The notes: generated from the sequence alone by a model not told the origin. Shown: positions 8,419-55,427, counted from the first letter of the stretch. The stretch is 64,000 bases of DNA from Nitrosopumilus sp. (GCA_965214775.1 OZ243974.1:1664001-1728000), one strand, 5' to 3'. Program-made: numbers and translations.

Positions 8419-8529
8419 AAAAATAACAAGCGTTTATTAGACCACCTGAGAGGCTTGATTTATCGGAAATAATGACGTGTAAGCAGCAGCAATGAGCTTT
8501 ATCGTCGTTGCTTAAGAGAAGAAAACAAA

Positions 8530-9888
8530 ATGACAAAGTTCAAAGAATTAGGATTAAACGAAGAGATACTGAAAGGAATCAGGGATCTTGGATTTGAGGA
8601 GGCATTCCCAATTCAGGAGGCTGTAATTCCGGTTCTGCTTGCCGGAAGAGACGTCGTAGGACAAGCTCATACGGGTTCGGGAAAGACTGCAGCATTCTCA
8701 TTGTCCATGCTGCAAGAGATCAGGCCAAAGAACGGAATCCAGGGCCTCATCATGGCACCAACAAGAGAATTGGCAATGCAGATAACAGACGAGATTAAAA
8801 AGTTTGGAAGGCATACGGGAATCAGGGTTGCAGCCGTCTATGGCGGACAAGGAATGGGAATCCAGCTTGACGCGCTAGAGAGGGGCGTCGAGGTAGTTGT
8901 CGCAACGCCGGGAAGACTAATTGATCATCTCAAAAGAGGCTCAATTGAGTTACGAGATGTTACCCACATTGTCCTTGATGAGGCAGACACAATGCTTGAC
9001 ATGGGGTTTATTGACGACATCCAGTTCATTTTGGATTTGGCCCCTGAGGAGCGAGTAATGTCATTGTTTTCAGCCACAATGCCAACTGAGATTTTGAGAT
9101 TGTCAGAGGAGTACCTGAAAAATCCAAAGCAATTCCTCCTGGATGCAGACGATCTTAGTGGAGAGGGAATTGACCAGTCGTTTTTGGTCATAAAAGACAG
9201 AGACAAAGTCAAGTATCTAATTGACTTTATCAAACAAACAAAAGGACAATGCATAGTGTTTTGCTCAACCAAATACAGGACAAGAGACGTTCAAAGGTTC
9301 CTGCACAGGGAGAGGTTTGATGCAGTTGCAATTGAAGGAGACATGTCACAGCACAGAAGAGAGCAGTCCATGGCAAAATTCCGAAGTGGCAAAGCAGAGA
9401 TACTAGTTGCTACAGATGTGGCATCAAGGGGCATCGATGTTCCAAGAGTGGGACTGGTAATCAATTATGACGTTCCAAATCAAGAGATGACTTATTTTCA
9501 CAGAATTGGGAGAACTGCAAGAGCGGGGGCAGACGGCAAGGCAATCACATTTGTCTCATATTCCTCAGTGGGTGACTGGAGCCTGATTAAACGACAAATC
9601 AAAGTTCCGATCAAGGATCTGAATGAAGAGATGGGCATTGAAATTTCAATTCCGGACCCTCTGAAAAGAGAAATTCCGTCAAGAAGATTTGGCGGACAAT
9701 CTAGGGGAAATTATTCTAGAGGCGGAAGAGGCCGTTCTGGAGGTTACGGAAGGGGTGGCAGCAGAAGGCGAGACTCTAGAGACGACAGAGGCGGCAGGCG
9801 AAGGCGTAATGACCGAGGAGGCCGCAGTGGCAGTAGCGGTAGCAACAGCAGCAGCAGAAATAGCTACGGCGGTCGCAGCAGATGGTGA
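8530..9888 (+). CDS. DEAD-box RNA helicase with an RG-rich tail
   Basis: AHTGSGKT, PTRELA, DEAD, SAT and HRIGRTAR motifs. Confidence 0.96.
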   Translation: MTKFKELGLNEEILKGIRDLGFEEAFPIQEAVIPVLLAGRDVVGQAHTGSGKTAAFSLSMLQEIRPKNGIQGLIMAPTRELAMQITDEIKKFGRHTGIRVAAVYGGQGMGIQLDALERGVEVVVATPGRLIDHLKRGSIELRDVTHIVLDEADTMLDMGFIDDIQFILDLAPEERVMSLFSATMPTEILRLSEEYLKNPKQFLLDADDLSGEGIDQSFLVIKDRDKVKYLIDFIKQTKGQCIVFCSTKYRTRDVQRFLHRERFDAVAIEGDMSQHRREQSMAKFRSGKAEILVATDVASRGIDVPRVGLVINYDVPNQEMTYFHRIGRTARAGADGKAITFVSYSSVGDWSLIKRQIKVPIKDLNEEMGIEISIPDPLKREIPSRRFGGQSRGNYSRGGRGRSGGYGRGGSRRRDSRDDRGGRRRRNDRGGRSGSSGSNSSSRNSYGGRSRW

Positions 9889-39817: not shown

Positions 39818-40522
39818 TCAATCGTTACTATAGTTTATCATAATGCCGTTGTCTCGCAGCCATGTTACGGCCCTTTGATAGTCGTGCATATGCGAGGAGA
39901 CCAGTCTCCAGAAACGATACGAATGGTCTTTGATCTTGAAATGACACAGCTCGTGCAATATTACATATTCGACTACAAACTTCGGAGCCTTGACAAGGTT
40001 GTAATTCAGGTTGATTTCATTACCAGTCGAGCTCCCCCATCTGTCCTTTAACTGCTTGACGTTTATTGTAGGAATGTTAACGCCTACTGTACTAGATAGT
40101 TTTTTCGTCAACCGTGCAAAAAGAACCCTTGCGCGCCTGTTAAGATATGCATTGTACATTTTTTGAATATGAGCGTTCGTGTGTCTTTTCTGAGGTATGT
40201 AAAACTCTAGTGTACTTCCTGCAATGCGTACATGCTCTGTACTGTTTGGTATGATTTTGATTGTATAGTGCTTGTCAAGTACGGGTAGGGTTGATTTTGT
40301 TGAAAATGTGGTATTTTTCTTGCCTGCATAATATAGCTGTTTTTTGTATATCCATGACGCCTTGTCCCTTACCATGCTTTTTACATCATGCATTGATTTG
40401 TTCTTGGGTGTTCGTACGGTAACACCTTGAACGGTAACCGTAATCTGTGAAGTCTTTACCCTGTTGCTTTGTATCAGATCATACAGGATTGATGTGTTTC
40501 CGTGCTTTATTTTTTGCATCAT
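39818..40522 (-). CDS. M48/YgjP (DUF45) metallohydrolase, typically downstream of hsdR
   Basis: RWGS, YVILHELCH, HSYRFW. Confidence 0.88.
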   Translation of the reverse strand: MMQKIKHGNTSILYDLIQSNRVKTSQITVTVQGVTVRTPKNKSMHDVKSMVRDKASWIYKKQLYYAGKKNTTFSTKSTLPVLDKHYTIKIIPNSTEHVRIAGSTLEFYIPQKRHTNAHIQKMYNAYLNRRARVLFARLTKKLSSTVGVNIPTINVKQLKDRWGSSTGNEINLNYNLVKAPKFVVEYVILHELCHFKIKDHSYRFWRLVSSHMHDYQRAVTWLRDNGIMINYSND

Positions 40523-43500
40523 AATGCATCGTGATTAACCAGCGTCAGAATCTTATCAATCAGGGCAAATATGTCCTCATCTGCCATGCTAGATGCCTCA
40601 AGTGTGTCGTATATCGCTCCTTGCATCTTTCTTTGAATGCTTGGCTTGTTGTGGTACTCTACCATTGTAGTGAAGGGTTGTAGTTTAGAGTACAGTGATT
40701 TTGCAAGTTTTCTCGACTGCTCTTTTTGGTGCACTAGTTTGTCAAGGTGATTATAAATGGCAAATTCTAGGTTGTTTTCGAATCCGAGATCCTTTAACAC
40801 CTTTTGGTGTGATAATGCCTCCTCGTAGACTTGCTTGTATTCGTTTTCGGCAAAGTAATCTGCGTTGTCCTTGCGTCTTTGTTTTTCTTCAGATATTATC
40901 CTCAAAAGACGCTGCTGCAGGCTTTCAAAGTATTCGGGGTTAATGTGCATATTTTCATGTATTACCTGTTGTGCCTTGTTTTTAATCAGGGCGGTTCTTG
41001 CCCTAGATGATTCAAACCTTGAAACATATGCCAAAAAGTTCTCAAAGGTAATCTCCTTGGGCTTTACAATCTCAGGTACCCCAGACGATCTGATTGCGTC
41101 ATCTATTAGCTTCTGAATCTTTGAGGCGTATTTAACGGTAGAAGTTATTTCACCGTAGGCGTTTCGTAATACCTGTCTGATTTTTACAAGATCCTTGAAA
41201 TCATCAATGTATGGCTTAGCCTCTTTTTTGTAGATTTGTGTGTTAAAAACCTTGGAGAACTTTTTAAAGTCCTCTATAAAGGCGTCTCTTTTATCTGCTG
41301 GCTCAAATGCTACAACGATTGCACCGTAATCCTTTTTGTCCATACCCTTAAGATGATTCATCACATCATGATGATGCGACTGGAGCGACTCCAACTGATG
41401 AGCATCAGGCTCTAGGGCCCCCCTGATCTGGCAAGGATTAAATGACTGTAGCGCATTTTGGAGGTTTTTTGTTACGCCATAGTAGTCTACAATCAGTCCT
41501 CTGATTTTTGATTCGTCGTAGGGCCTGTTTACCCTTGCAATGGCCTGCAGTAACGCATGATCCTTGAGTGGTTTGTCAAGATACATTACGCTTACAATCG
41601 GTGCGTCAAAGCCCACCAGCAGCATGTCTACTACGATTAATATCTTGGTTGGATCTTTTGGATCTTTGAAGGCATTCTCGGCCAGCCTTTGTTCCTTGTC
41701 TGTAAGGTAGTACTTGTCCCAGCTTGTACCATCCTTGCCTGTCTCACCTTGTTTTTGATCCATTATTATTTTTGACTGCGGTGCGTGCAATCTATCCAGC
41801 TCTTTTTTGTATAGTACAGCTGCCTCCCTTGATGAGGCAACAAGCATTGCCTTGTATCCGGATTCCAAATAGTTTTCCTTAAAGTGGTCGATGATATTGC
41901 TAGCAATTTCTTTTATTCGTGCAGGAGACGTGGCAATTGCGATTTTGTTCGCATACTCTCGCTTTAGCTTATCCTTTAGCTCTGGCGTCATGCCCTGTTC
42001 GGATCCGACGAATCTTTCAAATAGCTCATCAATGTTATTGGCACCTTCGATAAACAGGTCAGGTAGCATTCCTACATAATCTATTGGGAGGGTGGCCCCA
42101 TCTGACTTTGACTCCTCAAAACCATACTGGTCGATTAAATCCCCAAAAACCTGAAACGTTGACTTGTCTTCCCTGTCAATCGGTGTTCCGGTAAAACCAA
42201 AGAATATACCATTGGGCATTGCAGCACTCATGGAGTTTGCATCTATGCCGTACTGTGAACGGTGTGCCTCATCTACAAGAACTATGATCTTTTCATCCGT
42301 CTTGCTTTTTACATCCTCGAACTTTTGTATCGTAGTCACCATGGTCTTGCCCCTTGGTGATGCGATAAATTCGTCAAGATCGGAAGAGATTTGCGCCTTT
42401 ACCGGTAACGGATATCCGGACTGGAGAAAGGTGCTGTAAATTTGCTGGGTTAGCTGTAATCTATCCGTTACTATCAGTATGGGTAGATTACCGTGCTGAA
42501 TTGCCTGTTTTGCCACCCACAGCATTGTAAATGACTTGCCAGATCCCTGGGTATGCCAGACGACACCACCGTGTCTGTCCTGTGCGGTTTGTATTTTTTT
42601 GGCACACTCTTGCACTGCCCTATACTGCTGATGTTTTGCTGTAATTTTTATTTTTTTACTGCCTGTGTCTTGGTATATTGTATAGTTTTTTAGCAAGTCC
42701 AACAGGTTGGACTTGTCAAGCATTCCCGCAATCAGTATCTCCTGCTCCCTACATGCTCCGAATTTCTCCTCTACCTGTTCCCTAGTCAAAGGATGTGCAC
42801 TAGACCACCTACTGTTTTGAAAACTGTTTACATCAGAAGTTATCGTGCCGTGTCTTGCCTTTATTCCGCATGTTGCAATAAGTATGTGGTTATAGTACAT
42901 TAGCCTGTCAAAGCCCTTACCCGATGATCGGTATTTTTTGAAATTCTCTTTTTCTACCGCATCTTCTAGCCATCTTGGTTTGGTAGGGGACTTGCACTCG
43001 ATTATCACTAGAGGAATGCCGTTGACAAAGACTACGATATCAGGATAAATACGCTGCTTGAAACCCCACAGTTCAAACTGGTTTGTAACCAAAAAATCAT
43101 TGTTCTGCATGTTTTCAAAATCAAACAGTCTTATGGTTTTTCGCACTGTGCCGGTTGCATCGTACTGTTCCACTGTTATGGGCTCAAGGCCCCCAGACTG
43201 TGACAGGCCAACAAGCTTTGCCCTGATCTTTTCATTTGCATCTACAGTATCCCGCGCAAACGGAAACTGATCCTCCTTTATCTGACTCAATGCATCAGAT
43301 ATGCCATCCTGATCAATGTGTGGGTTGAGTCGTCGTATTGCCTTTTCTAGCCTATCATACAGTAGCACCTCGTCTAGCTTGGATCTCTCCTTGTTGATAT
43401 CTAGCTTGGATTTGTATTGGTATCCCATTGTAGTCAGCTGCTCTAGTGCTGGCAGCTCAGAGTGCTCTATTTCATCACCTGAGCCTACCACAAAATCCAT
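40519..43500 (-). CDS. hsdR: Type I restriction enzyme R subunit
   Basis: PDIVVFVNGIPLVIIECK, WHTQGSGKS, DEAHRSQ, FTGTP, LQAIARVNR. Confidence 0.96.
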   Translation of the reverse strand: MDFVVGSGDEIEHSELPALEQLTTMGYQYKSKLDINKERSKLDEVLLYDRLEKAIRRLNPHIDQDGISDALSQIKEDQFPFARDTVDANEKIRAKLVGLSQSGGLEPITVEQYDATGTVRKTIRLFDFENMQNNDFLVTNQFELWGFKQRIYPDIVVFVNGIPLVIIECKSPTKPRWLEDAVEKENFKKYRSSGKGFDRLMYYNHILIATCGIKARHGTITSDVNSFQNSRWSSAHPLTREQVEEKFGACREQEILIAGMLDKSNLLDLLKNYTIYQDTGSKKIKITAKHQQYRAVQECAKKIQTAQDRHGGVVWHTQGSGKSFTMLWVAKQAIQHGNLPILIVTDRLQLTQQIYSTFLQSGYPLPVKAQISSDLDEFIASPRGKTMVTTIQKFEDVKSKTDEKIIVLVDEAHRSQYGIDANSMSAAMPNGIFFGFTGTPIDREDKSTFQVFGDLIDQYGFEESKSDGATLPIDYVGMLPDLFIEGANNIDELFERFVGSEQGMTPELKDKLKREYANKIAIATSPARIKEIASNIIDHFKENYLESGYKAMLVASSREAAVLYKKELDRLHAPQSKIIMDQKQGETGKDGTSWDKYYLTDKEQRLAENAFKDPKDPTKILIVVDMLLVGFDAPIVSVMYLDKPLKDHALLQAIARVNRPYDESKIRGLIVDYYGVTKNLQNALQSFNPCQIRGALEPDAHQLESLQSHHHDVMNHLKGMDKKDYGAIVVAFEPADKRDAFIEDFKKFSKVFNTQIYKKEAKPYIDDFKDLVKIRQVLRNAYGEITSTVKYASKIQKLIDDAIRSSGVPEIVKPKEITFENFLAYVSRFESSRARTALIKNKAQQVIHENMHINPEYFESLQQRLLRIISEEKQRRKDNADYFAENEYKQVYEEALSHQKVLKDLGFENNLEFAIYNHLDKLVHQKEQSRKLAKSLYSKLQPFTTMVEYHNKPSIQRKMQGAIYDTLEASSMADEDIFALIDKILTLVNHDAL

Positions 43501-44654: not shown

Positions 44655-45212
44655 ATGACATATTTTGTAAAACCCAAGATTTGTAATGTAGTGTGTACTG
44701 CCAGTCTTGAGCAAAGGATCAATATGGCTAGGCTTGCTGGACTTGCGTGCGGAATTTATGATGAGGCGATATACGGCGGAAGATGCGGATATGTTAAGAT
44801 GCCTGAGATGGACGGACGTGTGACCATATTTCCAAGTGGAAAGATGATCTCAGTTGGAGGCAGAACCATAAGCAAGGCCATCGAGCAGCTCAACCACGCA
44901 AAATTCTATCTGGTACAGGAAAAAATGATACACGATGTAAAGATTGTTCCCGTGATCCGAAACATCGTAGCCACGGTTGAGCTTGATCATAAAATACCCG
45001 TTGACGTATTGGCCTCAAAGATATCTGGAGCCATATATGATCCCGAAACGTTTCCAGGCATGATTTTAAAAGGGATCGACAGCTGTCGTTTTCTTGTATT
45101 TGCCTCTGGAAAGATTGTGATTGCAGGTGCCAAATCCTCAGACGAGCTAAACAGTGCATCCTTTGAGGTTCTTCAGAGGCTAGATGATACGGCCGCAAGG
45201 ATACTAACATGA
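44655..45212 (+). CDS. tbp: Divergent TATA-box-binding protein paralog
   Basis: Two TBP repeats: NVVCTASL..IFPSGK and NIVATV..YDPETFPG..LVFASGKIVIAGAKS. Confidence 0.88.
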   Translation: MTYFVKPKICNVVCTASLEQRINMARLAGLACGIYDEAIYGGRCGYVKMPEMDGRVTIFPSGKMISVGGRTISKAIEQLNHAKFYLVQEKMIHDVKIVPVIRNIVATVELDHKIPVDVLASKISGAIYDPETFPGMILKGIDSCRFLVFASGKIVIAGAKSSDELNSASFEVLQRLDDTAARILT

Positions 45213-46423
45213 CTCCAAAACCAAAAAAAGGCTACAAATTGGCAAAGTCGCTTTTTGGGAGATATGAGGAGATTCCAGAAGAATGGGAAATTGTTTCTAT
45301 GGAACAAATCTGTAAAAAATTTACTAGTGGAGGTACTCCCTCAACAAATGTTTTAGAATATTGGGATGGAGACATTCCATGGACAAGAAGCTCCATTTTA
45401 ACGAATCATTATTTGGAATATGGCGAACGATGTATTACAAAAAAAGGACTAGATGAAAGCTCTTCTGTTCTAATCCCGCAAGACAATTTACTTGTATCAT
45501 CCAGAGTATCGCTTGGAAACTTGTCGATAAATCGTATTGCTGTTGCAATTAGTCAGGACATAACGGCAATTATTGTAGATAAATCACACATCTCTTCTGA
45601 GTTTCTTTACTGGTTCTTAAAACAGAATATTATGCTCTTGACATCATACTCTCAAGGAACAACTATTCAGGGTTTCACACGAAAAGAATTATCAAAATTT
45701 CGAGTCGTTCTTCCTCCACTCCCAGAACAGGCAAAGATTGCGTCAATCCTTTCAGGAGTTGACGCACTGATTGAAAAGACGCAGGAGGCAATCGAGAAGA
45801 CCGAGCAGGTAAAGAGAGGATTGACGCAAAGATTACTGACTAATGGAATAGCAGGTACAAAACTCAAGAAAACATTTTTGGGCAAAATTGCTAAATTCTC
45901 AAGTGGTGAGTTTTTACCTACAAAAAACTATAATTTTGGCAAAATTCCCGTGTATGGAGGAAATGGTGTTGTTGGTTATCATGATAAGGAATTAATCAAA
46001 CACGATACGATAATTTTTGGTAGAGTTGGTGCATATTGTGGTTCAGTACATATTTCAAGAGATAAGTCATGGATTACTGATAACGCTATATTTATCAAGA
46101 ATCTTTCAAATCAAGTCCAGCTAGAATATCTTTATAGATTTTTATCACGATTAAACATAGGCATTTTAGCTGAAGTATCTGCACAACCAAAGATTACACA
46201 AGATATTCTCAACCATGTTAAAGTCCAATTTCCTGAAGATTTAGATGAACAAAAACAAATTGCATCAATCCTGTCGGGAGTTGACGCACCAGACCGTGCA
46301 TGCCTCATAATCGCCACAATCTTACGCATGAGACTGGGAATACTCTTAATACTGTTTGCAGCGGTGTTAAACCATGAGTTCCACAATACAGAAAAGGACC
46401 TACACAATCGTCATAACTTCTGA
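45209..46423 (+). CDS. hsdS: Type I R-M specificity subunit hsdS1; homology ends at 46288 (SGVDA), remainder is unrelated read-through
   Basis: IPEEW, GGTPST, two TRDs, EQAKIASILSGVDA repeats; final coiled coil missing. Confidence 0.88.
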   Translation: MTPKPKKGYKLAKSLFGRYEEIPEEWEIVSMEQICKKFTSGGTPSTNVLEYWDGDIPWTRSSILTNHYLEYGERCITKKGLDESSSVLIPQDNLLVSSRVSLGNLSINRIAVAISQDITAIIVDKSHISSEFLYWFLKQNIMLLTSYSQGTTIQGFTRKELSKFRVVLPPLPEQAKIASILSGVDALIEKTQEAIEKTEQVKRGLTQRLLTNGIAGTKLKKTFLGKIAKFSSGEFLPTKNYNFGKIPVYGGNGVVGYHDKELIKHDTIIFGRVGAYCGSVHISRDKSWITDNAIFIKNLSNQVQLEYLYRFLSRLNIGILAEVSAQPKITQDILNHVKVQFPEDLDEQKQIASILSGVDAPDRACLIIATILRMRLGILLILFAAVLNHEFHNTEKDLHNRHNF

Positions 46424-46595
46424 TGAAATAGATGGGGGTTTTGTCGGGGTCTGCGATGAGCTGAACGCCTTTTCGCAAGGTGAGACGTACGGAGAGGTAA
46501 TGGAGAATATGAAGGAGGCAGTAGAGCTTGCGGCAGAAGAAAGCGGCAACACTGATGATTTTAACATGCTGATCGTTCAGAAGCGTAATGACTAA
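46374..46595 (+). CDS. hicB: HicB-family antitoxin
   Basis: GGFVGVC..L..AFSQGETYGEVMENMKEAVEL. Confidence 0.88.
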   Translation: MSSTIQKRTYTIVITSDEIDGGFVGVCDELNAFSQGETYGEVMENMKEAVELAAEESGNTDDFNMLIVQKRND

Positions 46596-46902
46596 GATTC
46601 CGAGAATTTCCGGCAATGCAATGATAAGATACCTGATCAGGAAAGAATTCACAACAACAAGCAGAAAAGGCAGTCACGTTACATTAAGACGTGATCATGT
46701 CCCGGTAACGGTTCCTGCTGGAAACGGCAAGCTAAAGGTTGGGTTGCTTTTAGGCGTGCTAGACAAGGCGGGAATTGACAGGAAGGAGTTTGTAGACGAT
46801 CACATCGTACGAGGTCACCTACCCCTGCCAATCAGGCACGAGTTGGCATCTATGACTATGATTTTCACGCCTATACTGACGATCATTGAAAATTTCGCCT
46901 GA
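46588..46902 (+). CDS. hicA: HicA-family toxin with its C-terminus replaced by MITE-C read-through (native end at 48003-48020)
   Basis: RKGSHVTL, VTVP, LKVGLL..LDKAGI; removing the insertion gives ...DDHISGIAK*. Confidence 0.85.
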   Translation: MTKIPRISGNAMIRYLIRKEFTTTSRKGSHVTLRRDHVPVTVPAGNGKLKVGLLLGVLDKAGIDRKEFVDDHIVRGHLPLPIRHELASMTMIFTPILTIIENFA

Positions 46903-47966
46903 TTACACGCGGCGCTCAAGATATTTGTAGATGTCAACCTTGATGGAACACGTCCTAAAGTATTCCGAGACATCCCTTTTGAGGTGATCTGCCGAATCGT
47001 AAAAGGCAGATGTGACCAGTATGTACTTGGCATCCTTCCAGATTGGCTCTATGGCGCTCAGCTCCGGCCTGGCTACCGGCAGGTACAGCAGGATAACGTC
47101 GGGATTTTTCTCCAGGTACATGCGGACCCTTCCGGTCCTATGCTGTGCTGCGTTGTCCATCACAATCAGAACCTTTCCCCACTTTTTGCGCGCCTGCTTG
47201 AGATAACGCACAAAGTTTATGCTGTTGAACTTGTCGTATGTACGCATCAGCCTGGTTCCGTCGTCTGCAACCGTTCCGTATACCACGACGCGCTCCCTTC
47301 TGCCGGATCGTTGCACCTCGATTCTGTCCCCCACTGGCGACCAGAACTTTTTGCCGTCCCTTCCCGTACTGACGAATATCGACTCGTCCTGTACGGTTAT
47401 CCTGAATCCGCGCCTTTTTGCAAGCCTAATCGTGTCTTTTGCCTCCCTTTGCCATCGTCTTACCTCCTTTGCGTCGGCAGCATCTGCCAGCTTGGTAGTT
47501 GACGTCTTTAGCGAGAATCCCATCGTGCGCAGGATTCTTCTGATGCTTCCAACGCTGTATGTTACATGCAGTTTGCGGCGCACCCAGTTGCGCATCTTCT
47601 TTGGGGTGAGCTTTTCCATCCTGCGCAGCCTCATGGCGATCTTTTTTATCCTGTTGATTGGAACCTTTGGCTTTTTGCCCCTGTTGGGGGAGTCACGGAG
47701 ACCGTCAACGCCGTCAAGCTCAAACCTCTCAACCCACATCTGTACGGTACGCTGTGTCACGTCGGCAATCTCTGCGGTCTGTGCAGTGGTGTTGCCAAGC
47801 AGTACGGAGCGCACCGCCAGGATTCTGGTATAAACCCTGTTATCCTTTTCTACATGCATGGCGTCCGTGAGGATTTTCGTCTTGTTCATGTCAGAAGGGC
47901 CATGGCGGAGATCTATAAACCTTCACAAGACGTGTAATCAGGCGAAATTTTCAATGATCGTCAGTA
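46874..47966 (-). mobile_element. Intact IS630-family element
   Basis: Perfect ~36-bp TIR TACTGACGATCATTGAAAATTTCGCCTGATTACACG, TA duplication. Confidence 0.93.
46903..47889 (-). CDS. IS630 transposase
   Basis: N-terminal HTH, QDES, VMDNAAQH, PELSAIEPIW. Confidence 0.93.
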   Translation of the reverse strand: MNKTKILTDAMHVEKDNRVYTRILAVRSVLLGNTTAQTAEIADVTQRTVQMWVERFELDGVDGLRDSPNRGKKPKVPINRIKKIAMRLRRMEKLTPKKMRNWVRRKLHVTYSVGSIRRILRTMGFSLKTSTTKLADAADAKEVRRWQREAKDTIRLAKRRGFRITVQDESIFVSTGRDGKKFWSPVGDRIEVQRSGRRERVVVYGTVADDGTRLMRTYDKFNSINFVRYLKQARKKWGKVLIVMDNAAQHRTGRVRMYLEKNPDVILLYLPVARPELSAIEPIWKDAKYILVTSAFYDSADHLKRDVSEYFRTCSIKVDIYKYLERRV

Positions 47967-48124
47967 TAGCCAGCAGGGGGACGTGACCACATACATCACA
48001 TCAGTGGAATTGCCAAATAATTGAATGTAAAGCTGTCCCAGGCATCACGGTCAAAATATAGAGAATAAAATAGCTATTTTATGAAACAGCTACACAAAAA
48101 CATGAATTTGAATATACAATCACG

Positions 48125-49039
48125 ATGTCAAACCAAAGAAGCATGACGCTGTTTGAGGAATCAATCAGATCAAAATATACAAAAAGGAACTACCATTCTC
48201 ACCTCAACCACTTCATGAAATTTATGAAAGCAGGCTCTACTGATGATGTGTTGATGCTATCACCCTCCGAGCTACAACGCGGAGTAGAGGATTACCTGAT
48301 GGCGTTAAAATCCACATCCAATCCAAACTCAGTCCCGTCTATGTTTCGAGGAATAAGGCATTTTTGCATCATGAATGAGATCGGCCTCAACTGGAACAAA
48401 ATATACAAGATGTTTCCCCCAAAACAGAAAACCCAAAGCATGAGATCCTACACCGCAAGTGAAATCCGCCGGATGCTGTCTGTTGAAAAAAATGCGAGAA
48501 ACAAGGCACTGATTCACTTTCTTGCATCAACGGGTGCAAGAATAGGGGTTTTTGATCATCCCATGCTGATCAAACACATGCAAACGATGCCCTGCCGCTG
48601 CAGCGCGGTGCTGCTTTATGCCGGGGATGTGGAGGAATACTGGTCATTTCTTACGCCACAGGCAACGAAAATACTAAAGGCGTACCACGATTACCGCAGG
48701 CAAAAAGGTGAGGTTTTCGGTGATGACGCCCCGATGTTTGGAACTGACAAGGCAGTCCAAGGGCAGTTGGGATGGAGTGGTGCCAGATCCGTAATCTACA
48801 GGGCAATCTCAAAGAGCGGCATAGCCAGACTCAAGCAGGGAGGACGCTATGATGTTCAGGCAGATCACGGTTTTAGAAAGCGGTTCAATACCATACTAAA
48901 GCTGGACAATTCGATAAACTACAACATTGCAGAAAAACTGATGGGTCACAAAAATGGCCTTGATGGAACATATCTTACGCCAACACTGGAGGAGATGTTC
49001 TCAGAATTTAGGAAAGTCATGCGCAAGATACAGGTTTGA
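48125..49039 (+). CDS. Tyrosine recombinase (candidate hsdS invertase)
   Basis: STGARIG, HGFRKRF, LMGH and GTY catalytic residues. Confidence 0.9.
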   Translation: MSNQRSMTLFEESIRSKYTKRNYHSHLNHFMKFMKAGSTDDVLMLSPSELQRGVEDYLMALKSTSNPNSVPSMFRGIRHFCIMNEIGLNWNKIYKMFPPKQKTQSMRSYTASEIRRMLSVEKNARNKALIHFLASTGARIGVFDHPMLIKHMQTMPCRCSAVLLYAGDVEEYWSFLTPQATKILKAYHDYRRQKGEVFGDDAPMFGTDKAVQGQLGWSGARSVIYRAISKSGIARLKQGGRYDVQADHGFRKRFNTILKLDNSINYNIAEKLMGHKNGLDGTYLTPTLEEMFSEFRKVMRKIQV

Positions 49040-49178
49040 GTTGCAGGAGGAAGCTTGGATCCTAACCTGATGCGGGTTGTGGGTCACATAGATAACATGT
49101 TTACGATTATCCGTGGGACATAGAAAACCATGTGTGCATCACACACTTGAGATTTTGTTGACATCCTTAAACTTGATC

Positions 49179-50177
49179 TCAATAACGTTTTCTGTTTATT
49201 TTAAACTCGTATGTTTTCTTAATTAGCGGTAAAGCATTTTGTATGTCTTTATCAGTTTTGATATCCGACTGGAAATTTCCTACACCGTGATGCCCTTTGT
49301 CAGAAACATCTATGATGAACTTTGAGAGAGGTAAAATATTCTTGTCTGAAACAGAGTATGTCAGGGCAATTTTCGACTGCATTGCCTCCATTGTACAAAT
49401 GCAGGAACCGTGTTCTCGTGAATAGAAACCTGCATAGATCTTTTTCTGTGTGAATTCTAATTCCGGAATCATGTCTAGGATTCTATTCTTCAACTCATTC
49501 CATAATTTTTTTGTCATATCCGAAGGACGTGCATTATGATATTTGCCTGCAAGATAGTCGTCCTCGACATATGTCGTCAGGGCCAACATCTTGTTCCTCT
49601 TTTTATGATTTTCAGAGATTGTTTCTTTTTGGCCGCCTGCAAAAGCCATGGTAATTATGTCGTTTTCATATCTGTTGATCCGGTATAGTACAATTGGCAG
49701 TCCTTCAAAACCACCTGCCTTTTTCTGAAACTTTGTAAATTCCGGAGAAATGAATACCACCCGAGTTTCATCCCAATTGAAATAGTCTAAATCATAATGC
49801 CTTTTCGTTATCTTGTTGTATAACAAGACAAAACTTTCTTTTTTGTCTTTTAATAACTGATAATAGCTGAATCCCTGATCTGTTAGACTGTTGGCCTTTG
49901 CAATGTTTTTGTATTCAATAATTACAAACGATTTTTTTTCTACATCAAAAGCAATAGTATCGGGTCTTAGATCTCCTATTTGGTGTTCGGTTTTAAGCAA
50001 TTCAACATTTGGGAAAATGATTGAAAGGTTATTTTCTATCATTTTCTGAAGTGTTTTTTCATAATCAAAAGATCTCTTGGAGTTTGACCTCTCTCTGATC
50101 TCCTTTAATTTTCTGTTTTCTAATTGGAAAATGCGCAAACCTATGCTGTACATTAGCTGAGATGCTAATAAATGCAT
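49179..50177 (-). CDS. PD-(D/E)XK nuclease (NucS-like) with a DUF5655-like C-terminal domain
   Basis: EKTLQ..IENNL, RPDTIAFD, FVIIEYK; C-terminal DVSDKGHHGVG. Confidence 0.75.
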   Translation of the reverse strand: MHLLASQLMYSIGLRIFQLENRKLKEIRERSNSKRSFDYEKTLQKMIENNLSIIFPNVELLKTEHQIGDLRPDTIAFDVEKKSFVIIEYKNIAKANSLTDQGFSYYQLLKDKKESFVLLYNKITKRHYDLDYFNWDETRVVFISPEFTKFQKKAGGFEGLPIVLYRINRYENDIITMAFAGGQKETISENHKKRNKMLALTTYVEDDYLAGKYHNARPSDMTKKLWNELKNRILDMIPELEFTQKKIYAGFYSREHGSCICTMEAMQSKIALTYSVSDKNILPLSKFIIDVSDKGHHGVGNFQSDIKTDKDIQNALPLIKKTYEFKINRKRY

Positions 50178-50211
50178 AATGTCGCAGCGTCCTCCCAGTA
50201 CCGCTTCACAG

Positions 50212-50348
50212 AGATCTGATTTGAAATTAGCAAACTCGGATTATTTGTGGACGAGTTTGTATAAAGTAGCTCAAAACATCAACAAAACGCAAGATATCTG
50301 TGAAATTACTTGAAAAATTCGCACGGTTTCTAATTTCGGATCACCTCT
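50212..50348. mobile_element. MITE-B (137 bp)
   Basis: Imperfect TIRs, 3-bp CAG duplication. Confidence 0.88.
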
Positions 50349-50491
50349 CAGCGGACTGGTGGAAGGTTTTGTTCTAGAAGCATCCACGGACTGGTTCTGC
50401 TTTGTACTGCAAGCCGTTTAGTGTGCATCTTTAGGACTATTGTCACTATACTAAGTATATGCTGTATGACCAGATACGACAAGTGATGGTC

Positions 50492-51766
50492 TCAGATCTT
50501 TACTCGGATCTTGCCTGTAAGAAGATTCTGCATTAAGCCTTTTTTCAATATCTCAAGTTTTTCTTTGTACTCCTGATTCTTCTGAATATATGCATCAACT
50601 CCCGACAGGATTGATGCAATTCTTTGTTGTTCTGGAAGGGATGCCGGTACAGTAACAACCACCTTTGAGATCCCCTTTTTACTGATCTCTAAAAACGTCG
50701 TGCCATATGATAGTCGCAACAAGTTATTTTGATTGTGCCTGAGCAAATAAAAAATCAACAACTTGTCAAAGCCATCATTGCAAATTATGCTTTGAAATCC
50801 TTGATTGGTTGATATTGGCTTTGCTGCTATTGCACATTCGCCAATCGTAGCTCGTGAAGTAATCAGAATTGCCCCCTTGGGTAACAATTTGGCCGAACTA
50901 TTGTCCAATCCATGTTTGGTGATTTTCCGCTCGGTGTTTTTTATCTCGTTGGTTTGTAACTTAGTGATGTCTGTTGGAATCGCCCACAATATGTCTCCGT
51001 TCCAGTATTCTGGATTTTTGGAATCCGGAGTGCCACCGCCGATTATATCTCCTACATCGCTTAGTCTTTTGGCATCCCACTCTTCTGGAATCTTGATATC
51101 TTTGCTGAACATCCAATGGACCTTCTTGAACTTCGTATGGCCGATTCCCCTAGTCAGCAGCCTCTGCATAAGGCCCTTCTTGAGCCTCTCCGTCTTCTCG
51201 ATTGCCTCCTGCGTCGACTCGATCAATGCGTCAACTCCTGAAAGGATTGACGCAATCTTTGCCTGTTCTTTTATATTATCAGTAAATGGCAGTTTTGTTT
51301 TTTCTATATCCTCCCTGTTTATCGCATCATATGTAGTTCCCTGAGCGTAAACAGAAAAATTTTTCTTGTTTTTACTGATCAAATAAAAACAGTAAAGCAA
51401 GTTGTTTTTTCTCGTGTTAAACGATGCTATGCCCCTTCCTATACAACATCTCGTTTTTGTGAGATTTGTTTCCCCTACTGGAGCTCTTACAGAAAACAAA
51501 ATGGAGTTGCTTTCTGCGATTTTTTTGGAATCTGTACACCATACCGTAGGATTTGGATATGCTGCTCCAAAATCAGTTACTCCCTGATAAAACGGCAAAC
51601 CTTTCTCTTCTTCATTGTAACTTTCGGATGGTGGAGACTGGCCCATTGTTACTTTTAGTATTTCTGAAGTTCGTGTAATTGTCCACTCTTCTGGAATTTT
51701 AATCTCCCTGTCAAACATCCAGTGGATCTTCTTGTAGCCTTTCTTGGGATTAGGCGGCCGATTCAA
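50492..51766 (-). CDS. hsdS: Type I R-M specificity subunit hsdS2, complete
   Basis: Two TRDs (MGQSP; GGGTPDS), two ASILSGVDA repeats, C-terminal KKGLMQNLLTGKIRV. Confidence 0.93.
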   Translation of the reverse strand: MNRPPNPKKGYKKIHWMFDREIKIPEEWTITRTSEILKVTMGQSPPSESYNEEEKGLPFYQGVTDFGAAYPNPTVWCTDSKKIAESNSILFSVRAPVGETNLTKTRCCIGRGIASFNTRKNNLLYCFYLISKNKKNFSVYAQGTTYDAINREDIEKTKLPFTDNIKEQAKIASILSGVDALIESTQEAIEKTERLKKGLMQRLLTRGIGHTKFKKVHWMFSKDIKIPEEWDAKRLSDVGDIIGGGTPDSKNPEYWNGDILWAIPTDITKLQTNEIKNTERKITKHGLDNSSAKLLPKGAILITSRATIGECAIAAKPISTNQGFQSIICNDGFDKLLIFYLLRHNQNNLLRLSYGTTFLEISKKGISKVVVTVPASLPEQQRIASILSGVDAYIQKNQEYKEKLEILKKGLMQNLLTGKIRVKI

Positions 51767-53372
51767 AGCTTTATCCCAAGTCCCGTCAAATCTGCTCGTG
51801 TCTGCTTTTCCAGTTTTCCTATCTCTGCACTTGTGGTTTTTAACTCATTATATGCAGTTTGTATGTCGATTTCCTCTTCGGGCTCGGAAATGTCTACGTA
51901 TCGGGGCACATTAAGATTAAACTTGTTTTCTTGCAGTTCTTTCAAATCTGCTACATGGCAATACTTGTCAATATCCTTAAAACTCTCAAATGCGGACACT
52001 ATCTTTGAAATATCTGTTACTCTTAGCTTGTTTCTGTTTTTGCCCTCTTCAAAGTCCTTTGCGGCATAGATGAACAGAACTTTGTCTTTACGCTTTGCAG
52101 GCTTTGACTTGTTTAGAATCATTATACAGGCAGGAATGCTTGTACCCCAGAACAGCTTGGGTGGCAGTGCAATTATGGCCTCAATTACATCACCTTGCAG
52201 GTTATTCTCAGCACATCCGACAATCATTTTTTCTCGGATTTTACCCTCCTTGCTTCCTCTGAACAGAACCCCTTGGGAACACACTATGGCTGCCTGACCT
52301 TTTGGGTTCAACGACGTCAACATGTGCAAGATAAAAGCATAATCTGCCTTGTTCTTTGCAGGAGATATGCCGTACTCAAACCTGTCGTACGGATCTTCTG
52401 ATGCCGTAGAGTTGTCCCAGTCCATGGAAAAGGGAAAATTAGCTAATAGACTTTATGCGTAATCGATCTGAATGAGATGAATTTGTTCGTAATAATCCTA
52501 GTTTTGGATCGATTACGCATAAAGTCTAATACCCTGTCGTATTTTTTAAGTGAGCCGCCTTCTATCAGTTTTGGTTCCGATAACACATTTCCATACTGTA
52601 TGTTAAAGTTCTCCATCTGGTGTAAAACCATGTTCATCTTACACATTCCTAGGTTGCCATAGTTTGATTCCTGTCCATCCAGTACAAGATCATCAACGTT
52701 GCCGCCATGATCCTGCACGTATTTTCTAGAAAGAATCAGCATTCCGCCGGAACCGCAGGTAGGATCAGAGATCTTCATCTTTTGTGTTGGTTTTGTGATA
52801 TGTACCAACAAGCTTACGACTTCCCTTGGGGTAAAGAACTCACCACCCTTCTTTTTTGTCTCATCTGCAAACGTCTCAAGCAGATACTCGTACGCATCGC
52901 CAAAAATGTCCTCTTTTTCTAGATTTTCATTGGATAATGCCAATCCGTTAAAGTGTGCAATAAGAGCACGAAGCTTGTCATCAGGATATTTCTTTTTGTC
53001 GTTGTACTTTGTATTGGTTAGCACTCCCTCCAGTTTTCGTATATTTTTTTCCAAATCCCTGCATACATCATCCATTTTTTCGCCCAGATTGGAAGATGCA
53101 GAAGACAAGATATCCCAACGTGCAGACTCTGGAACAAAAAACTTATGTCGGAATTCTTGTAGTGCCTTTTTCTCATTCAGGCCACTTTCTATCAAATTCG
53201 CCACATTTTCCTCAAAGGTGTCATTTAGGCGCTTTAGAAACAACACTGTCATGACTGGCTGCCTGTATTCTTGCGCATCAAGGGATCCACGCAGAATGTC
53301 GGCTGCATCCCATAAGTGCCGCTTCAGTGACTCGAGTGTTAGTTTATTTTGGCCCACAAAGCCATTTGGCAA
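51763..53372 (-). pseudogene. hsdM: Type I methyltransferase hsdM split by MITE-A
   Basis: LWDAADILRG, GEFFTPREV, DPTCGSGG upstream; removing 52449-52526 plus the duplication rejoins YDRVL to ANFPFSMDW in frame. Confidence 0.92.
52449..52526. mobile_element. MITE-A (78 bp) inside hsdM
   Basis: Perfect TIR GACTTTATGCGTAATCGATC; TAATA on both flanks. Confidence 0.93.
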
Positions 53373-54107: not shown

Positions 54108-55427
54108 TTGACTGCGCAGAAACCCCTCACAAGCCTGCCTGATCTAGATCAGATCGCACCGGCTTGCACCGCCAAGATTGAAATACCAAAGCACCACACT
54201 ACCTCCAAGGATGAAGTCGCCGAGAGGCTGACCGATATGGGAAAAACAAAACTACATACGAAAAAAGGCACTGCCAGACAGACAAAGAAATCCAGGCTTC
54301 TTGCAAACTCTGACATAAAGCGGTGGTATGACAACCTGGCCCGTGGCAGCATGAACACCGCCGAAGGGCGCCTCAGACGGCTAGGCCGCTTCTGTGAGAT
54401 GCATCAGATGACTCCAGCTCAATTGGCAGATCTTGCAATGAAGGATCTGAGGGCTGCGACGGATCTGCTAGAGGATCACATAACCATGATGGAGGAAAAG
54501 GGAGGATCCCCCGGGTACATAGACGAGCAGATAAAGACCGTAAAGTCTTGGCTCAGACACTTTGATGTGGAGATAAGGCGCAAGATACGGGTCAGATCCA
54601 TCAACTTTACTCCCACGCTGCAAGACGAACGAGTCCCTGACGCACAGGAGATGGCCGAAATCTACAGCCGCGCCGGACTGCGCGAGTCGGTGATAATATC
54701 ACTGATAGCAAAGTCCGGCCTAAGGCCGGAGGTCATCGGAAACCACGACGGAACAGACGGGCTGACTATTGCCGACCTGCCTGACATTGTAATCCACCGG
54801 GGCAGAGCCAAGTGCATCAGAGTACCAAACAAAATAGTGGTACGGCACCAGCTCTCAAAGGCAAGACACCAGTACTTTACGTTTGGAACCCGGTCTGCAA
54901 CAAACCACCTTGTGGCATACCTTAACGACAGGCTGTCACACGGCGAGCCCCTCCACGGAGACTCGCCTGTAGTCGCACCTGACTATGCCTACAAGACCAA
55001 CCGGGGCAGAAACGCTGCAAAAAAGTTCCTGCCTACGCCACGCATAAGCAAGCTGGTCAGGAATGTGTTCCGGCCGCGATTTGCGTGGAGGCCATACGTG
55101 CTGCGCCCGTACTTTGACACACAACTGCTAATCGCAGAGTCCAAGGGAAAGATTGCGCATGACTTTCGCGTGTTCTTTATGGGACACAAGGGAACCATGG
55201 AGGCGCGGTATACCACGAACAAGGGGGTTCTTCCCGAGGTTCTGGTGGCCGAGATGCGCGAGGCGTTTCTCAGGGCAGAAGAACATTTGGAGCAGACCGA
55301 TACGGATCCGATGCTGGAGCAAAGAATCGAGGCGCAGAGCATCATCGAGACTGCAACGCCAGAACAGCTTGACCGTGTGCTAAAGGTGCTAGCATGCACC
55401 GGCAAGACGGGCCAAGCCAGGTCGTAG
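54108..55427 (+). CDS. Tyrosine integrase (start may be 54237)
   Basis: SGLRPE, LSKARH, YVLRPYF, FMGH, ARY; ends about 107 bp from the tRNA-Lys 3' end. Confidence 0.92.
   Translation: MTAQKPLTSLPDLDQIAPACTAKIEIPKHHTTSKDEVAERLTDMGKTKLHTKKGTARQTKKSRLLANSDIKRWYDNLARGSMNTAEGRLRRLGRFCEMHQMTPAQLADLAMKDLRAATDLLEDHITMMEEKGGSPGYIDEQIKTVKSWLRHFDVEIRRKIRVRSINFTPTLQDERVPDAQEMAEIYSRAGLRESVIISLIAKSGLRPEVIGNHDGTDGLTIADLPDIVIHRGRAKCIRVPNKIVVRHQLSKARHQYFTFGTRSATNHLVAYLNDRLSHGEPLHGDSPVVAPDYAYKTNRGRNAAKKFLPTPRISKLVRNVFRPRFAWRPYVLRPYFDTQLLIAESKGKIAHDFRVFFMGHKGTMEARYTTNKGVLPEVLVAEMREAFLRAEEHLEQTDTDPMLEQRIEAQSIIETATPEQLDRVLKVLACTGKTGQARS

What the first reader, a model, noticed from the sequence alone, without database searches (positions are those of the whole stretch)
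45209..51766. Candidate archaeal type I R-M shufflon: convergent hsdS genes, paired dyad recombination sites and an internal tyrosine recombinase
Seen: hsdS1 (+) and hsdS2 (-) face each other with a tyrosine recombinase between them. Each 'ASILSGVDA' stretch encodes a 28-bp dyad. Sites A (within 45724-45766) and C (within 51227-51269) are TGCGTCAA-TCCTTTCAGGAG-TTGACGCA, inside a perfect 43-bp inverted repeat. Sites B (46258-46288) and D (50591-50621) are TGCATCAA-TCCTGTCGGGAG-TTGA(C/T)GCA. Site D has matching changes in both arms that keep the symmetry. hsdS1 homology stops exactly at the last base of B. Known: bacterial type I loci (Streptococcus pneumoniae ivr, Mycoplasma pulmonis hsd) switch specificity by recombinase-driven hsdS inversion, and tyrosine recombinases generally need matching spacers. 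Inference: A x C and B x D inversions give four states that swap the second TRD and the single C-terminal helix, while the two spacer types disfavour A x B or C x D deletions. I know of no characterised archaeal example.
Basis: partly seen in the sequence, partly recalled or inferred. Interest (0 to 1): 0.88.

Follow-up and report, generated by a model that had tools for sequence, protein, structure and literature searches.

The report
Archaeal invertible restriction-specificity gene switch
Two facing specificity genes of a DNA-restriction system in an ammonia-oxidising archaeon share paired flip sites and a recombinase, a layout repeated in related species, so this looks like an archaeal version of the specificity switches known from bacteria, although its methylase gene is broken in this genome.

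Summary
Four 28-bp dyads lie in two convergent hsdS genes, and they are the only four in the 2.83-Mb genome. A and C are identical over 43 bp; B and D share a 27-bp identical core. hsdS1 loses homology right after B. A tyrosine recombinase (Rec) lies between the genes, preceded by HicB/HicA.

The new evidence is comparative. Rec orthologues occur in 20 of 151 same-genus genomes. At 16 of 27 Rec places an hsdS conserved site lies close by. The recurrent layout is truncated hsdS, dyad, HicBA, Rec, then the distal helix of a facing complete hsdS. All 10 truncated copies of this hsdS type end just after the dyad. Partner sites match within a genome but differ between genomes. Arm codons are invariant while spacer codons drift.

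Public contigs of 3 of 4 runs break exactly where a k=31 graph breaks only if B×D recombinants are present. The deepest run shows no break.

Caveats:
- Inversion was inferred from contig ends, not seen in reads.
- A×C inversion cannot be seen at k=31.
- hsdM is split by an 88-bp MITE here.
- Rec is multi-copy and often lies away from hsdS.

Verdict: a likely real archaeal hsdS inverton family, a new variant of a known kind.

The parts
40519..43500 (-). hsdR, intact (993 aa)
   Evidence: HSDR_N, SWI2_SNF2/ResIII and T1R_D3-like domains.
44655..45212 (+). Divergent TBP paralogue. Its stop overlaps the hsdS1 start.
   Evidence: PF00352 E 1.4e-28. NCBIfam TBP models score 87.6 bits or less, below their cut-offs. 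A TBP gene also sits directly upstream of the truncated hsdS in L030 and L046, and next to Rec at several other places.
45209..46288 (+). hsdS1: TRD1a, central helix, TRD2a, no distal helix. The ORF runs on as unrelated sequence to 46423.
   Evidence: Two PF01420 stretches. Homology ends after GVDA.
45724..45766 (+). Site A (central). The dyad is 45739-45766.
   Evidence: 43 nt identical to site C.
46247..46288 (+). Site B (distal, truncated copy). The dyad is 46261-46288.
   Evidence: 42-nt inverted repeat with D, 27-nt perfect core at 46258-46284. Contigs of X4, X6 and X7 end or begin at 46284 and 46258.
46374..46595 (+). HicB-like antitoxin gene
   Evidence: PF15919 E 0.002, below the cut-off. 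Orthologues of 59-91% identity sit between the dyad and HicA in relatives.
46588..46804 (+). HicA-like toxin gene. The ORF continues to 46902 into an inserted repeat.
   Evidence: PF07927 29.9 bits, above the 27-bit cut-off. Homology to orthologues and to the paralogue ends near residue 72, at about 46804.
46871..47969 (-). IS630-type insertion sequence (transposase 46903-47889), preceded by a 67-nt repeat at 46807-46873
   Evidence: DDE_3 and HTH domains. 39-bp perfect terminal inverted repeats. Several full-length copies of 97-100% identity elsewhere in the genome.
48125..49039 (+). Tyrosine recombinase (Rec), the candidate invertase
   Evidence: Orthologues of 60-71% identity in 19 other same-genus genomes.
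49179..50177 (-). DUF5655-like / NucS-like ORF inside the B-D segment
   Evidence: PF18899 E 5e-4, below the cut-off. A 33%-identical homologue lies just upstream of hsdS in L047.
50203..50352 (.). MITE of about 145 bp
   Evidence: About 100 blastn matches across the genome. Read depth is about 30 times that of the flanks.
50492..51766 (-). hsdS2, complete: TRD1b, central helix, TRD2b, distal helix. Its start overlaps the hsdM stop.
   Evidence: Two PF01420 stretches. Translation.
50591..50632 (-). Site D (distal, complete copy). The dyad is 50591-50618.
   Evidence: Contigs of X4, X6 and X7 begin at 50592 or 50595.
51227..51269 (-). Site C (central). The dyad is 51227-51254.
   Evidence: 43 nt identical to A.
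51763..53372 (-). hsdM, split into ORFs 52443-53372 and 51763-52425 by an 88-bp MITE at about 52444-52531
   Evidence: The two ORFs cover N6_Mtase positions 2-127 and 138-310. The MITE has terminal inverted repeats (I5) and three 100%-identical copies elsewhere. Relatives read straight through ...VLANFPF... with no stop.

Best explanation

Two convergent hsdS genes each have their own start and two target-recognition domains (TRDs). Only one distal C-terminal helix exists for the two of them.

Inversion between the distal sites B and D would flip the 4.3-kb segment that carries HicBA, Rec and the distal-helix coding end. That moves the helix from hsdS2 (next to hsdM) to hsdS1 (behind a TBP paralogue). 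Inversion between the central sites A and C would exchange everything downstream of the central site. Together these give four states. Each state has exactly one complete gene: T1b+T2b, T1a+T2a, T1a+T2b or T1b+T2a. The four TRDs are at most 32% identical to one another.

The enzyme is most likely the Rec tyrosine recombinase encoded inside the segment. It would act on a core with conserved inverted arms and a variable spacer. The spacer differs between the central and distal classes.

Shown here: the anatomy, its conservation in relatives, identity of partner sites within genomes, and contig ends that fit a B×D mixture.

Inferred: catalysis by Rec, A×C inversion, and expression of hsdS1.

In this genome hsdM is broken by a MITE, so the switch probably has no methylation output now.
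For: Anatomy:
- Four dyads, the only four in the genome.
- A and C identical over 43 nt; B and D identical over 27 nt, with identity ending exactly at the dyad end.
- Four distinct TRDs.

Conservation:
- Rec orthologues (E<=1e-100) in 20 of 151 same-genus genomes, at 27 places.
- 15 of these places have an hsdS conserved-region site within the 1.5-kb flanks. The window's own place has site B 1.84 kb upstream, because an IS lies between. That makes 16 of 27.
- Convergent hsdS pairs flank Rec in G036, G009 and G014. Compact versions occur in L047 and L050.
- The exact 28-nt motif occurs at 12 places in 9 records of the 185,579-species genome collection. All 9 are titled Nitrosopumilus or Nitrosopumilaceae. 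10 of the 12 places carry HicB, HicA and/or Rec.

Site behaviour:
- All 10 truncated flavour-1 copies diverge immediately after ...GAY GCA.
- Truncated copies of a second hsdS type (ESIF..IDA), which travel with orthologous Rec, do the same.
- Central partner sites are identical for 43, 162, 114 and 38 nt in four genomes, yet differ between genomes.
- Arm codons are invariant: Ser TCA 25/25, Val GTT 24/24, Ile ATT 25/25, Ala GCA 24/25. Background use of TCA is 21-37% and of GTT 21-34%. Spacer codons vary (Leu 4 codons, Ser 3 codons).

Reads:
- Contigs of X4, X6 (study P2) and X7 (study P3) end or begin at 46284, 46258, 50592 and 50595.
- A k=31 de Bruijn simulation puts breaks there only when B×D recombinant junctions are added to the reference.
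- The same simulation reproduces the other observed breaks from the reference alone.
- X7 records 22 and 23 carry 3 unaligned letters exactly at these junctions.

Rec: catalytic-type residues are invariant in 11 orthologues.
Against: - No recombinant junction was read letter by letter. The inference rests on contig ends and a simulation.
- X3, the deepest run (about 178x), runs straight through B and D in the reference orientation.
- In X7 and X4 only three of the four expected junction types are implied. I put this down to low depth, which is an assumption.
- A×C inversion cannot be detected, because the 43-nt repeat exceeds k.
- The only listed 'opposite strands' joint (46247/51269) switches at the GAACA upstream of the dyad. 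It comes with small indels in TRD1b at the same depth. It therefore looks like a diverged co-occurring relative, not a dyad crossover.
- Rec is multi-copy and often decayed. Examples are the frameshifted paralogue at G000:C1:517 kb with no hsdS, and many fragments in G015 and G036.
- 11 of 27 Rec places have no hsdS site within 1.5 kb.
- The dyad lies in a protein motif that is conserved anyway.
- The sites are related to one another, and one site per locus L038-L049 was selected by the search pattern. The codon counts are therefore descriptive only.
- hsdM is broken here.
- The AlphaFold model of Rec was too poor to use.
Confidence: 0.62

Rival explanations
1. The dyad, HicBA, Rec (and TBP) module is a selfish, mobile or spreading unit that recombines with the conserved hsdS dyad. 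On this view hsdS truncation and inversions are by-products of the element, not a programmed specificity switch of the host R-M system.
For: - Rec is multi-copy with many decayed fragments per genome: 15 matches in G015, 11 in G036, and a frameshifted second copy in G000 at 517 kb beside an IS.
- Solitary 'TRD stub, dyad, HicBA, Rec' remnants occur without a partner hsdS (L033/L040, L042, L044).
- 11 of 27 Rec places lack an hsdS site within 1.5 kb, and 6 of those carry TBP and/or HicBA.
- The module includes a toxin-antitoxin pair, as addictive elements often do.
- S subunits of type I R-M systems are listed among the frequent genes of thaumarchaeal integrated elements (PMC6563490, passages seen).
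Against: - No place shows the distal helix in direct orientation behind the module, which simple insertion into hsdS would leave.
- Where a partner exists it is always inverted, and its distal site matches the truncated one.
- Two spacer classes are maintained in all 9 genomes examined at the DNA level. This makes sense for a switch.
- No terminal repeats or target duplications of an element were found.
Confidence: 0.18
2. This is a static pair of paralogous hsdS genes. The repeats are ordinary conserved hsdS linker sequence kept alike by protein-level selection and occasional gene conversion. The recombinase is an unrelated neighbour, and no inversion occurs today.
For: - The dyad sits in the conserved EQ..IA..L...D start of the HsdS helices, and all its arms are coding.
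- X3 shows only the reference orientation.
- hsdM is dead in this genome.
- The locus is littered with IS and MITE insertions.
Against: - The truncated copy keeps the right arm of the dyad intact to its last base in 10 of 10 flavour-1 cases, although nothing functional follows it in frame.
- Arm codons are invariant well beyond codon-usage expectation, while spacer codons drift.
- Rec, HicBA and hsdS occur together in many species.
- Contig breaks at B and D in 3 of 4 runs are not produced by the reference alone.
Confidence: 0.12
3. Inversions do occur, but through general homologous recombination between the inverted repeats and not through Rec. Part of the switching at the pneumococcal spnIII locus works this way.
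For: - Central repeats are long enough for homologous recombination (43 to 162 nt identical).
- A paper title states that spnIII recombination is independent of all known pneumococcal site-specific recombinases (PMC6620402, search listing only).
Against: - The B/D identity is only 27 nt here and 18-38 nt in relatives. This is short for homologous recombination.
- Homology ends exactly at the dyad.
- The pattern of conserved arms with a variable spacer, and the constant linkage with Rec, are what a site-specific system predicts.
Confidence: 0.06

Closest known systems
Streptococcus pneumoniae SpnIII / cod (ivr) locus with the PsrA (CreX) tyrosine invertase
   Same: A type I R-M locus with several hsdS genes in inverted orientation, inverted repeats inside the conserved hsdS parts, a locus-encoded tyrosine recombinase, and TRD reassortment that gives several specificities (PMC7672463, passages seen; PMC4948785, abstract start).
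   Different: - The host is an archaeon.
- Rec is a divergent Xer-like protein below the Pfam and NCBIfam cut-offs. Its relation to the six bacterial invertase clades was not tested.
- Both hsdS genes have their own starts and full N-termini and compete for a single distal helix. From recall, the pneumococcal locus instead has one expressed gene plus silent partial genes.
- A HicBA pair and Rec lie inside the invertible segment.
- A TBP paralogue heads the second expression site.
- Inversion and methylome switching have not been demonstrated here.
Streptococcus suis SsuCC20p-type four-way hsdS switch and other 'epigenetic invertons' (surveys by Huang et al. 2020 and Atack et al. 2020)
   Same: Duplicated hsdS genes with two classes of inverted repeat give a four-way switch, and a recombinase/integrase gene lies in the locus (PMC7394358, passages seen).
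   Different: - Huang et al. report 16 bacterial phyla, with strong enrichment in host-associated bacteria.
- The main text of Atack et al. holds no archaeal genus name among those I searched for. Its supplementary lists could not be opened.
- This system is from ammonia-oxidising archaea.
Mycoplasma pulmonis hsd loci (HvsR) and the R64 plasmid shufflon (Rci)
   Same: A tyrosine recombinase inverts DNA between short repeats placed inside coding sequence, so that alternative C-terminal parts are joined to a constant part. This description is recalled and was not tested here. HvsR appears as clade 6 in PMC7672463.
   Different: There are only two site classes and four sites here, the gene family or host domain differs, and no sequence relation to Rci or HvsR was tested.
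Archaeal XerA chromosome-dimer resolvase
   Same: It is the best family match of Rec: NCBIfam NF040815, E 1.8e-13 over residues 15-277. There is a weak match to PDB 4a8e.
   Different: The score of 50.7 bits is far below the 220-bit equivalog cut-off. Rec is multi-copy, linked to hsdS, HicBA and TBP, and confined to part of one genus. It is not the housekeeping XerA.

Membership tests
Type I R-M specificity subunit HsdS (Pfam PF01420) | Two target-recognition domains per protein | tested here: met
   hsdS1 E 2.3e-46 and hsdS2 E 8.7e-48, two stretches each.
Type I R-M specificity subunit HsdS (Pfam PF01420) | A central and a distal conserved helix | tested here: met
   hsdS2 has both. hsdS1 has only the central one and ends at the start of the distal one. 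So the feature is met for hsdS2 and not for hsdS1.
hsdS 'epigenetic inverton' / phase-variable type I R-M | At least two hsdS genes in inverted orientation that share inverted repeats | tested here: met
   A/C 43 nt at 100%; B/D 42 nt at 90% with a 27-nt perfect core.
hsdS 'epigenetic inverton' / phase-variable type I R-M | A site-specific recombinase gene in or beside the locus | tested here: met
   Rec at 48125-49039 lies between the two hsdS genes. The linkage recurs in relatives.
hsdS 'epigenetic inverton' / phase-variable type I R-M | Both orientations present within a population | tested here: inconclusive
   Contig ends in X4, X6 and X7 fit a B×D mixture, judged by a k=31 simulation. 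X3 shows none. No junction letters were seen, and A×C is undetectable.
hsdS 'epigenetic inverton' / phase-variable type I R-M | Intact hsdM (and hsdR), so that switching changes methylation | tested here: not met
   hsdR is intact. hsdM is split by an 88-bp MITE in this genome. hsdM is intact in relatives L043 and L041.
Tyrosine recombinase superfamily | Catalytic Arg ... His-x-x-Arg ... His/Trp ... Tyr | tested here: met
   R139, H248, R251, H275 and Y283 are invariant in 11 orthologues. I assigned their roles by position in the XerA alignments.
Tyrosine recombinase superfamily | Family model above its curated cut-off | tested here: not met
   PF00589 scores 20.1 bits against a 27.1-bit cut-off. 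NF040815 scores 50.7 against 220. Rec is a divergent member, not an XerA equivalog.
Tyrosine recombinase superfamily | Two-domain recombinase fold | tested here: inconclusive
   AlphaFold2 on the 11-sequence alignment gave mean pLDDT 50.4 and pTM 0.38. No fold search was run on it.
HicAB toxin-antitoxin | Adjacent HicA and HicB family genes | tested here: inconclusive
   HicA PF07927 scores 29.9 bits, above the 27-bit cut-off. HicB_lk PF15919 scores 18.7, below 27. There are no NCBIfam hits. The gene order HicB then HicA is conserved in relatives.

The most novel reading that the evidence does not exclude
Part of one genus of marine ammonia-oxidising archaea carries a family of epigenetic invertons of its own design. 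Two fully equipped hsdS expression sites compete for a single distal helix. One site sits behind hsdM, the other behind a dedicated TBP paralogue. The helix is carried on an invertible cassette that also encodes its own divergent recombinase and a HicBA pair. Cells would thus switch type I specificity, and possibly whole methylomes and virus resistance, by flipping the cassette. This would be the first supported case of programmed gene-altering inversion of an R-M system in Archaea.
Probability: 0.4. Interest if true: 0.78.

Novelty: new variant of a known kind. Interest (0 to 1): 0.64.

Why it matters
Recombinase-driven hsdS switching is well studied in bacteria, mostly host-associated ones. 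One large survey of programmed inversions states that it scanned bacteria only and names archaea as the next step (PMC9881135). A preprint calls archaeal invertons minimally investigated (PMC10028968).

This locus offers a concrete, conserved and testable archaeal case, in an ecologically important group of free-living or symbiotic nitrifiers. It comes with defined sites, a candidate enzyme and relatives that still have intact hsdM.

If it is real, three things follow:
- Phase-variable defence or methylation is not confined to Bacteria or to host-associated life.
- A new clade of invertase becomes available, with a compact core site.
- It becomes worth asking why a toxin-antitoxin pair and a TBP paralogue travel with the switch.

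Tried and rejected
- AlphaFold2 of Rec with the 11-sequence alignment gave mean pLDDT 50.4. That is too poor for a fold search, so none was run.
- A PDB sequence search gave only a marginal XerA match (E 0.48).
- The metagenome scan with the 28-nt motif found one short contig, L037. It is a distal site with its helix from a relative, and it says nothing about orientation.
- I first read the read laying joint 46247/51269 as TRD2a joined to site C. I dropped that reading for two reasons. The shorter side is 81 letters, which equals 46247-46327. A contig of the same depth carries indels at 51448/51451. The joint is therefore better read as a TRD1b-like domain joined to a B-type site. It switches at the GAACA upstream of the dyad, so it is not a dyad crossover. 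It probably comes from a diverged co-occurring relative at about 10-12% of the depth.
- Covariation of the two variable arm positions (G/A with C/T) was symmetric in 16 of 25 sites against about 12 expected. With related sites this is not convincing (counted by hand).
- My first regex scan missed the ASILSGVDA type and mislabelled central sites. It was replaced.
- The G014 against G009 comparison shows the interior of the locus inverted between collinear hsdM and hsdR flanks. However, TRD1 moves as well, so this is not a simple dyad inversion and was not used as evidence.
Supplementary files of papers are closed. The data sets of Atack et al. (PMC7394358) and Data S2 of PMC10028968 may list archaeal hsdS loci or invertons that I could not see.

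Full report
**1. What is there**

The window is positions 1664001-1728000 of a single-contig genome of 2,833,656 bp with 47% G+C. Read along the minus strand, the locus runs as follows.
- hsdM, split into ORFs 52443-53372 and 51763-52425.
- hsdS2 (50492-51766), whose start overlaps the hsdM stop.
- A DUF5655/NucS-like ORF (49179-50177).
- On the opposite strand: Rec (48125-49039), an IS630-type element (46871-47969), HicA-like (46588 onward), HicB-like (46374-46595), hsdS1 (45209-46288, with the ORF running to 46423) and a divergent TBP gene (44655-45212).
- An IS fragment, then hsdR (40519-43500).

These assignments rest.

A and C share 43 identical nucleotides. B and D share a 27-nt identical core within a 42-nt repeat. 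Homology between B and D stops at the last base of the dyad. The four TRDs are distinct: at most 32% identical, with TRD2a unrelated to the others.

**2. The locus is damaged in this genome**

hsdM is interrupted between ...RVL and ANFPF... by an 88-bp MITE. Three 100%-identical copies of that MITE lie elsewhere in the genome. Two relatives read through this point without a stop. An IS630-type element with 39-bp perfect terminal repeats, together with a 67-nt repeat, separates HicA from Rec. A MITE of about 145 bp lies at 50203-50352. hsdR, both hsdS genes and Rec remain open.

**3. The architecture is a conserved unit**

Rec orthologues (E<=1e-100, 51-71% identity to orthologues in other genomes) occur in 20 of 151 genomes of the same genus, at 27 places counting the window's two.

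Within 1.5 kb of Rec, 15 places show an hsdS conserved-region site. The window's own place has site B 1.84 kb upstream because of the IS, which makes 16 of 27. The other 11 places show none within that distance. Six of those 11 carry TBP and/or HicBA genes, and five carry nothing I recognised.

In G036, G009 and G014, Pfam hsdS hits flank Rec as a convergent pair.

The exact 28-nt motif, with four degenerate positions, is found at 12 places in 9 records of the 185,579-species collection. All 9 are titled Nitrosopumilus or Nitrosopumilaceae. Ten of the 12 places carry HicB, HicA and/or Rec.

The recurrent order is: truncated hsdS, dyad, HicB, HicA, Rec, then the distal helix and distal site of a complete hsdS on the other strand. 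In L047 and L050 the whole segment between the two distal sites is only about 1.6-2.2 kb.

**4. Behaviour of the sites**

All 10 truncated flavour-1 copies diverge immediately after ...GAY GCA.

A second, diverged hsdS type (...KIESIF..IDA) travels with orthologous Rec in G009, G014, G036, G015, G172 and G164. It shows the same cut right after IDA. So does an orphan truncated hsdS elsewhere in this genome.

Within a genome, partner sites are identical from 15-16 nt upstream of the dyad through the dyad. Central pairs stay identical for 43, 162, 114 and 38 nt in four genomes. Distal pairs lose identity exactly at the dyad end. Between genomes the sequences differ. This is concerted evolution of partner sites.

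Central and distal spacers differ in all 9 genomes where both were read as DNA.

Across 25 non-redundant flavour-1 sites the arm codons are invariant: Ser TCA 25/25, Val GTT 24/24, upstream Ile ATT 25/25 and last Ala GCA 24/25. Ile ATC is 22/25. The spacer codons vary: Leu uses 4 codons, Ser 3 and Gly 2, with some amino-acid changes. Background use of TCA is 21% in this genome and 37% in the relatives' loci. For GTT it is 21% and 34%.

Two caveats apply to these counts. The sites are related to one another. One site in each of L038-L049 was picked by the search pattern itself. The counts are therefore descriptive, not a test.

**5. Reads**

Five runs from two studies hold 89-93% of the sampled words. 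Four of them were laid as Logan contigs. I simulated a k=31 de Bruijn graph.

With the reference genome alone, the graph breaks at 45753/45737, 51256/51240 and 46339. All of these are seen in the contigs. It does not break at B or D.

Adding the B×D-inverted form creates breaks at 46284, 46258, 50592 and 50595. These are exactly the ends of records X4-9, X6-16, X7-22, X7-23, X4-13, X6-20 and X7-27.

X7-22 has 3 unaligned letters after 46284. X7-23 has 3 unaligned letters before 46258 and then runs unbroken to 46718. A model with only two base swaps would add a break at 46288/46259, which X7-23 contradicts.

Results against this reading:
- X3, the deepest run, passes through B and D in the reference orientation.
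- In X4 and X7 only three of the four junction types are implied.
- I never saw the junction letters.

A×C inversion cannot be assessed, because the 43-nt repeat is longer than k.

The one listed 'opposite strands' joint (46247/51269) has depth 22.4, 2.9 and 7.5 against about 178, 24 and 78 in X3, X4 and X6, and none in X7. It is best read as a TRD1b-like domain with small indels joined to a B-type site at the GAACA upstream of the dyad. That points to a diverged co-occurring relative with a different TRD in that position, not a dyad crossover.

**6. Mechanism**

The most likely mechanism is Rec-mediated inversion at two classes of sites.
- B×D moves the single distal helix between the two genes.
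- A×C exchanges the central helix, TRD2 and the distal end.

Four states result, each with one complete hsdS: T1b+T2b, T1a+T2a, T1a+T2b or T1b+T2a. Different spacers in the two classes would prevent A×B or C×D deletions and A×D or B×C mis-joins.

Rec has invariant R139, H248-x-x-R251, H275 and Y283. Its best family match is archaeal XerA, far below the cut-off.

The steps that are shown are the anatomy, the conservation, the identity of partner sites and the contig breaks. The steps that are inferred are catalysis by Rec, the crossover position, A×C switching, expression of the TBP-linked site and any phenotype.

**7. Rivals**

The strongest rival is that dyad, HicBA, Rec (and TBP) form a selfish spreading module.
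- For it: Rec is multi-copy and often decayed, and solitary remnants exist.
- Against it: a distal helix in direct orientation behind the module, the scar expected from simple insertion, was never seen. Partners are always inverted with matching sites.

A static pair of paralogues, and inversion by general homologous recombination, remain possible at lower odds.

**8. Literature**

- Huang et al. 2020 report hsdS invertons from 16 bacterial phyla, 92% of them host-associated (PMC7672463, passages).
- Milman et al. 2023 scanned bacteria only and name archaea as future work (PMC9881135, passages).
- The main text of Atack et al. 2020 has no match to Methano-, Nitroso- or Halo- (PMC7394358). Its supplements were closed.
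- Chanin et al. found 12 putative archaeal invertons in 42 datasets, one of them intragenic, in an adenylosuccinate synthase gene. They call the topic minimally investigated (PMC10028968, passages).
- A 2024 review of archaeal R-M systems has no occurrence of 'phase varia', 'inversion' or 'recombinase' (PMC11033074).
- The passages seen from a 2026 review cite only bacterial hsdS switches (PMC13076061).
- Searches combining Nitrosopumilus or Thaumarchaeota with hsdS, inverton or DNA inversion found nothing more specific.

**9. Verdict**

This is a new variant of a known kind of system. Its interest is reduced by the lack of direct proof of inversion and by the broken hsdM in this genome.

Noticed in passing
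window 44655-45212; L030 18031-18519; L046 2428-2928 and 6363-6881; L052, L061, L065, L067: A divergent TBP paralogue (below all NCBIfam TBP cut-offs) sits directly upstream of the truncated hsdS. In the window its stop overlaps the hsdS1 start. At several other places it sits directly upstream of Rec. It seems to belong to the module.
   Followed up: partly
G000:C1:517238-518750 (L007 about 8240-9750): A second, decayed copy of the HicB-HicA-Rec unit (96% and 91% nucleotide identity, Rec frameshifted). It lies beside an rve-type IS and has no hsdS nearby.
   Followed up: partly
L008 6064-7512 (G000:C1:346063-347511): An orphan hsdS of the second type (ESIF..IDA). It too loses homology right after the distal IDA. 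No hsdM or Rec was noticed next to it.
   Followed up: no
window 46289-46373 and the equivalent stretch in L038, L033, L010, L050, L051: The roughly 85 nt between the truncated dyad and the hicB start are conserved across species and across both hsdS types. This shows up as similar read-through tails in the hsdS frame. They could hold a hicB promoter or operator, or accessory recombinase sites.
   Followed up: no
window 45270-45292 against 51075-51093 and 51677-51697: A third class of short inverted repeats (19-21 nt, 86-95%) lies at the IPEEW box that opens TRD1a, TRD1b and TRD2b. TRD1b and TRD2b also share a 52-nt direct repeat of 81% there (I10, I11, D1). TRDs of one family occupy either position in different genomes (L048).
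   Followed up: no
L031 (G014) against L030 (G009): The hsdM and hsdR flanks are collinear (77-89% identity), but the interior, consisting of TRD1, the sites and Rec, is inverted and lies at the opposite end.
   Followed up: partly
window 50203-50352, 52444-52531 and 46807-46873: Three short repeat families are present: about 145 bp with roughly 100 matches, 88 bp with 171 blast rows including three identical copies, and 67 nt with about 30 matches. The genome is heavily colonised by MITEs and IS elements.
   Followed up: partly
window 54108-55427: A 439-aa ORF just beyond hsdM has no Pfam match. By eye its C-terminal part shows a His-x-x-Arg ... Gly-His ... Tyr pattern like an integrase. The R-M locus may lie in or beside an integrated element.
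   Followed up: no
window 46247-46327 joined to 51269 upward (runs X3, X4, X6): A minor contig, at about 10-12% of the depth, joins a slightly different TRD1b to a B-type site. This suggests a co-occurring close relative with another TRD in the truncated gene.
   Followed up: partly
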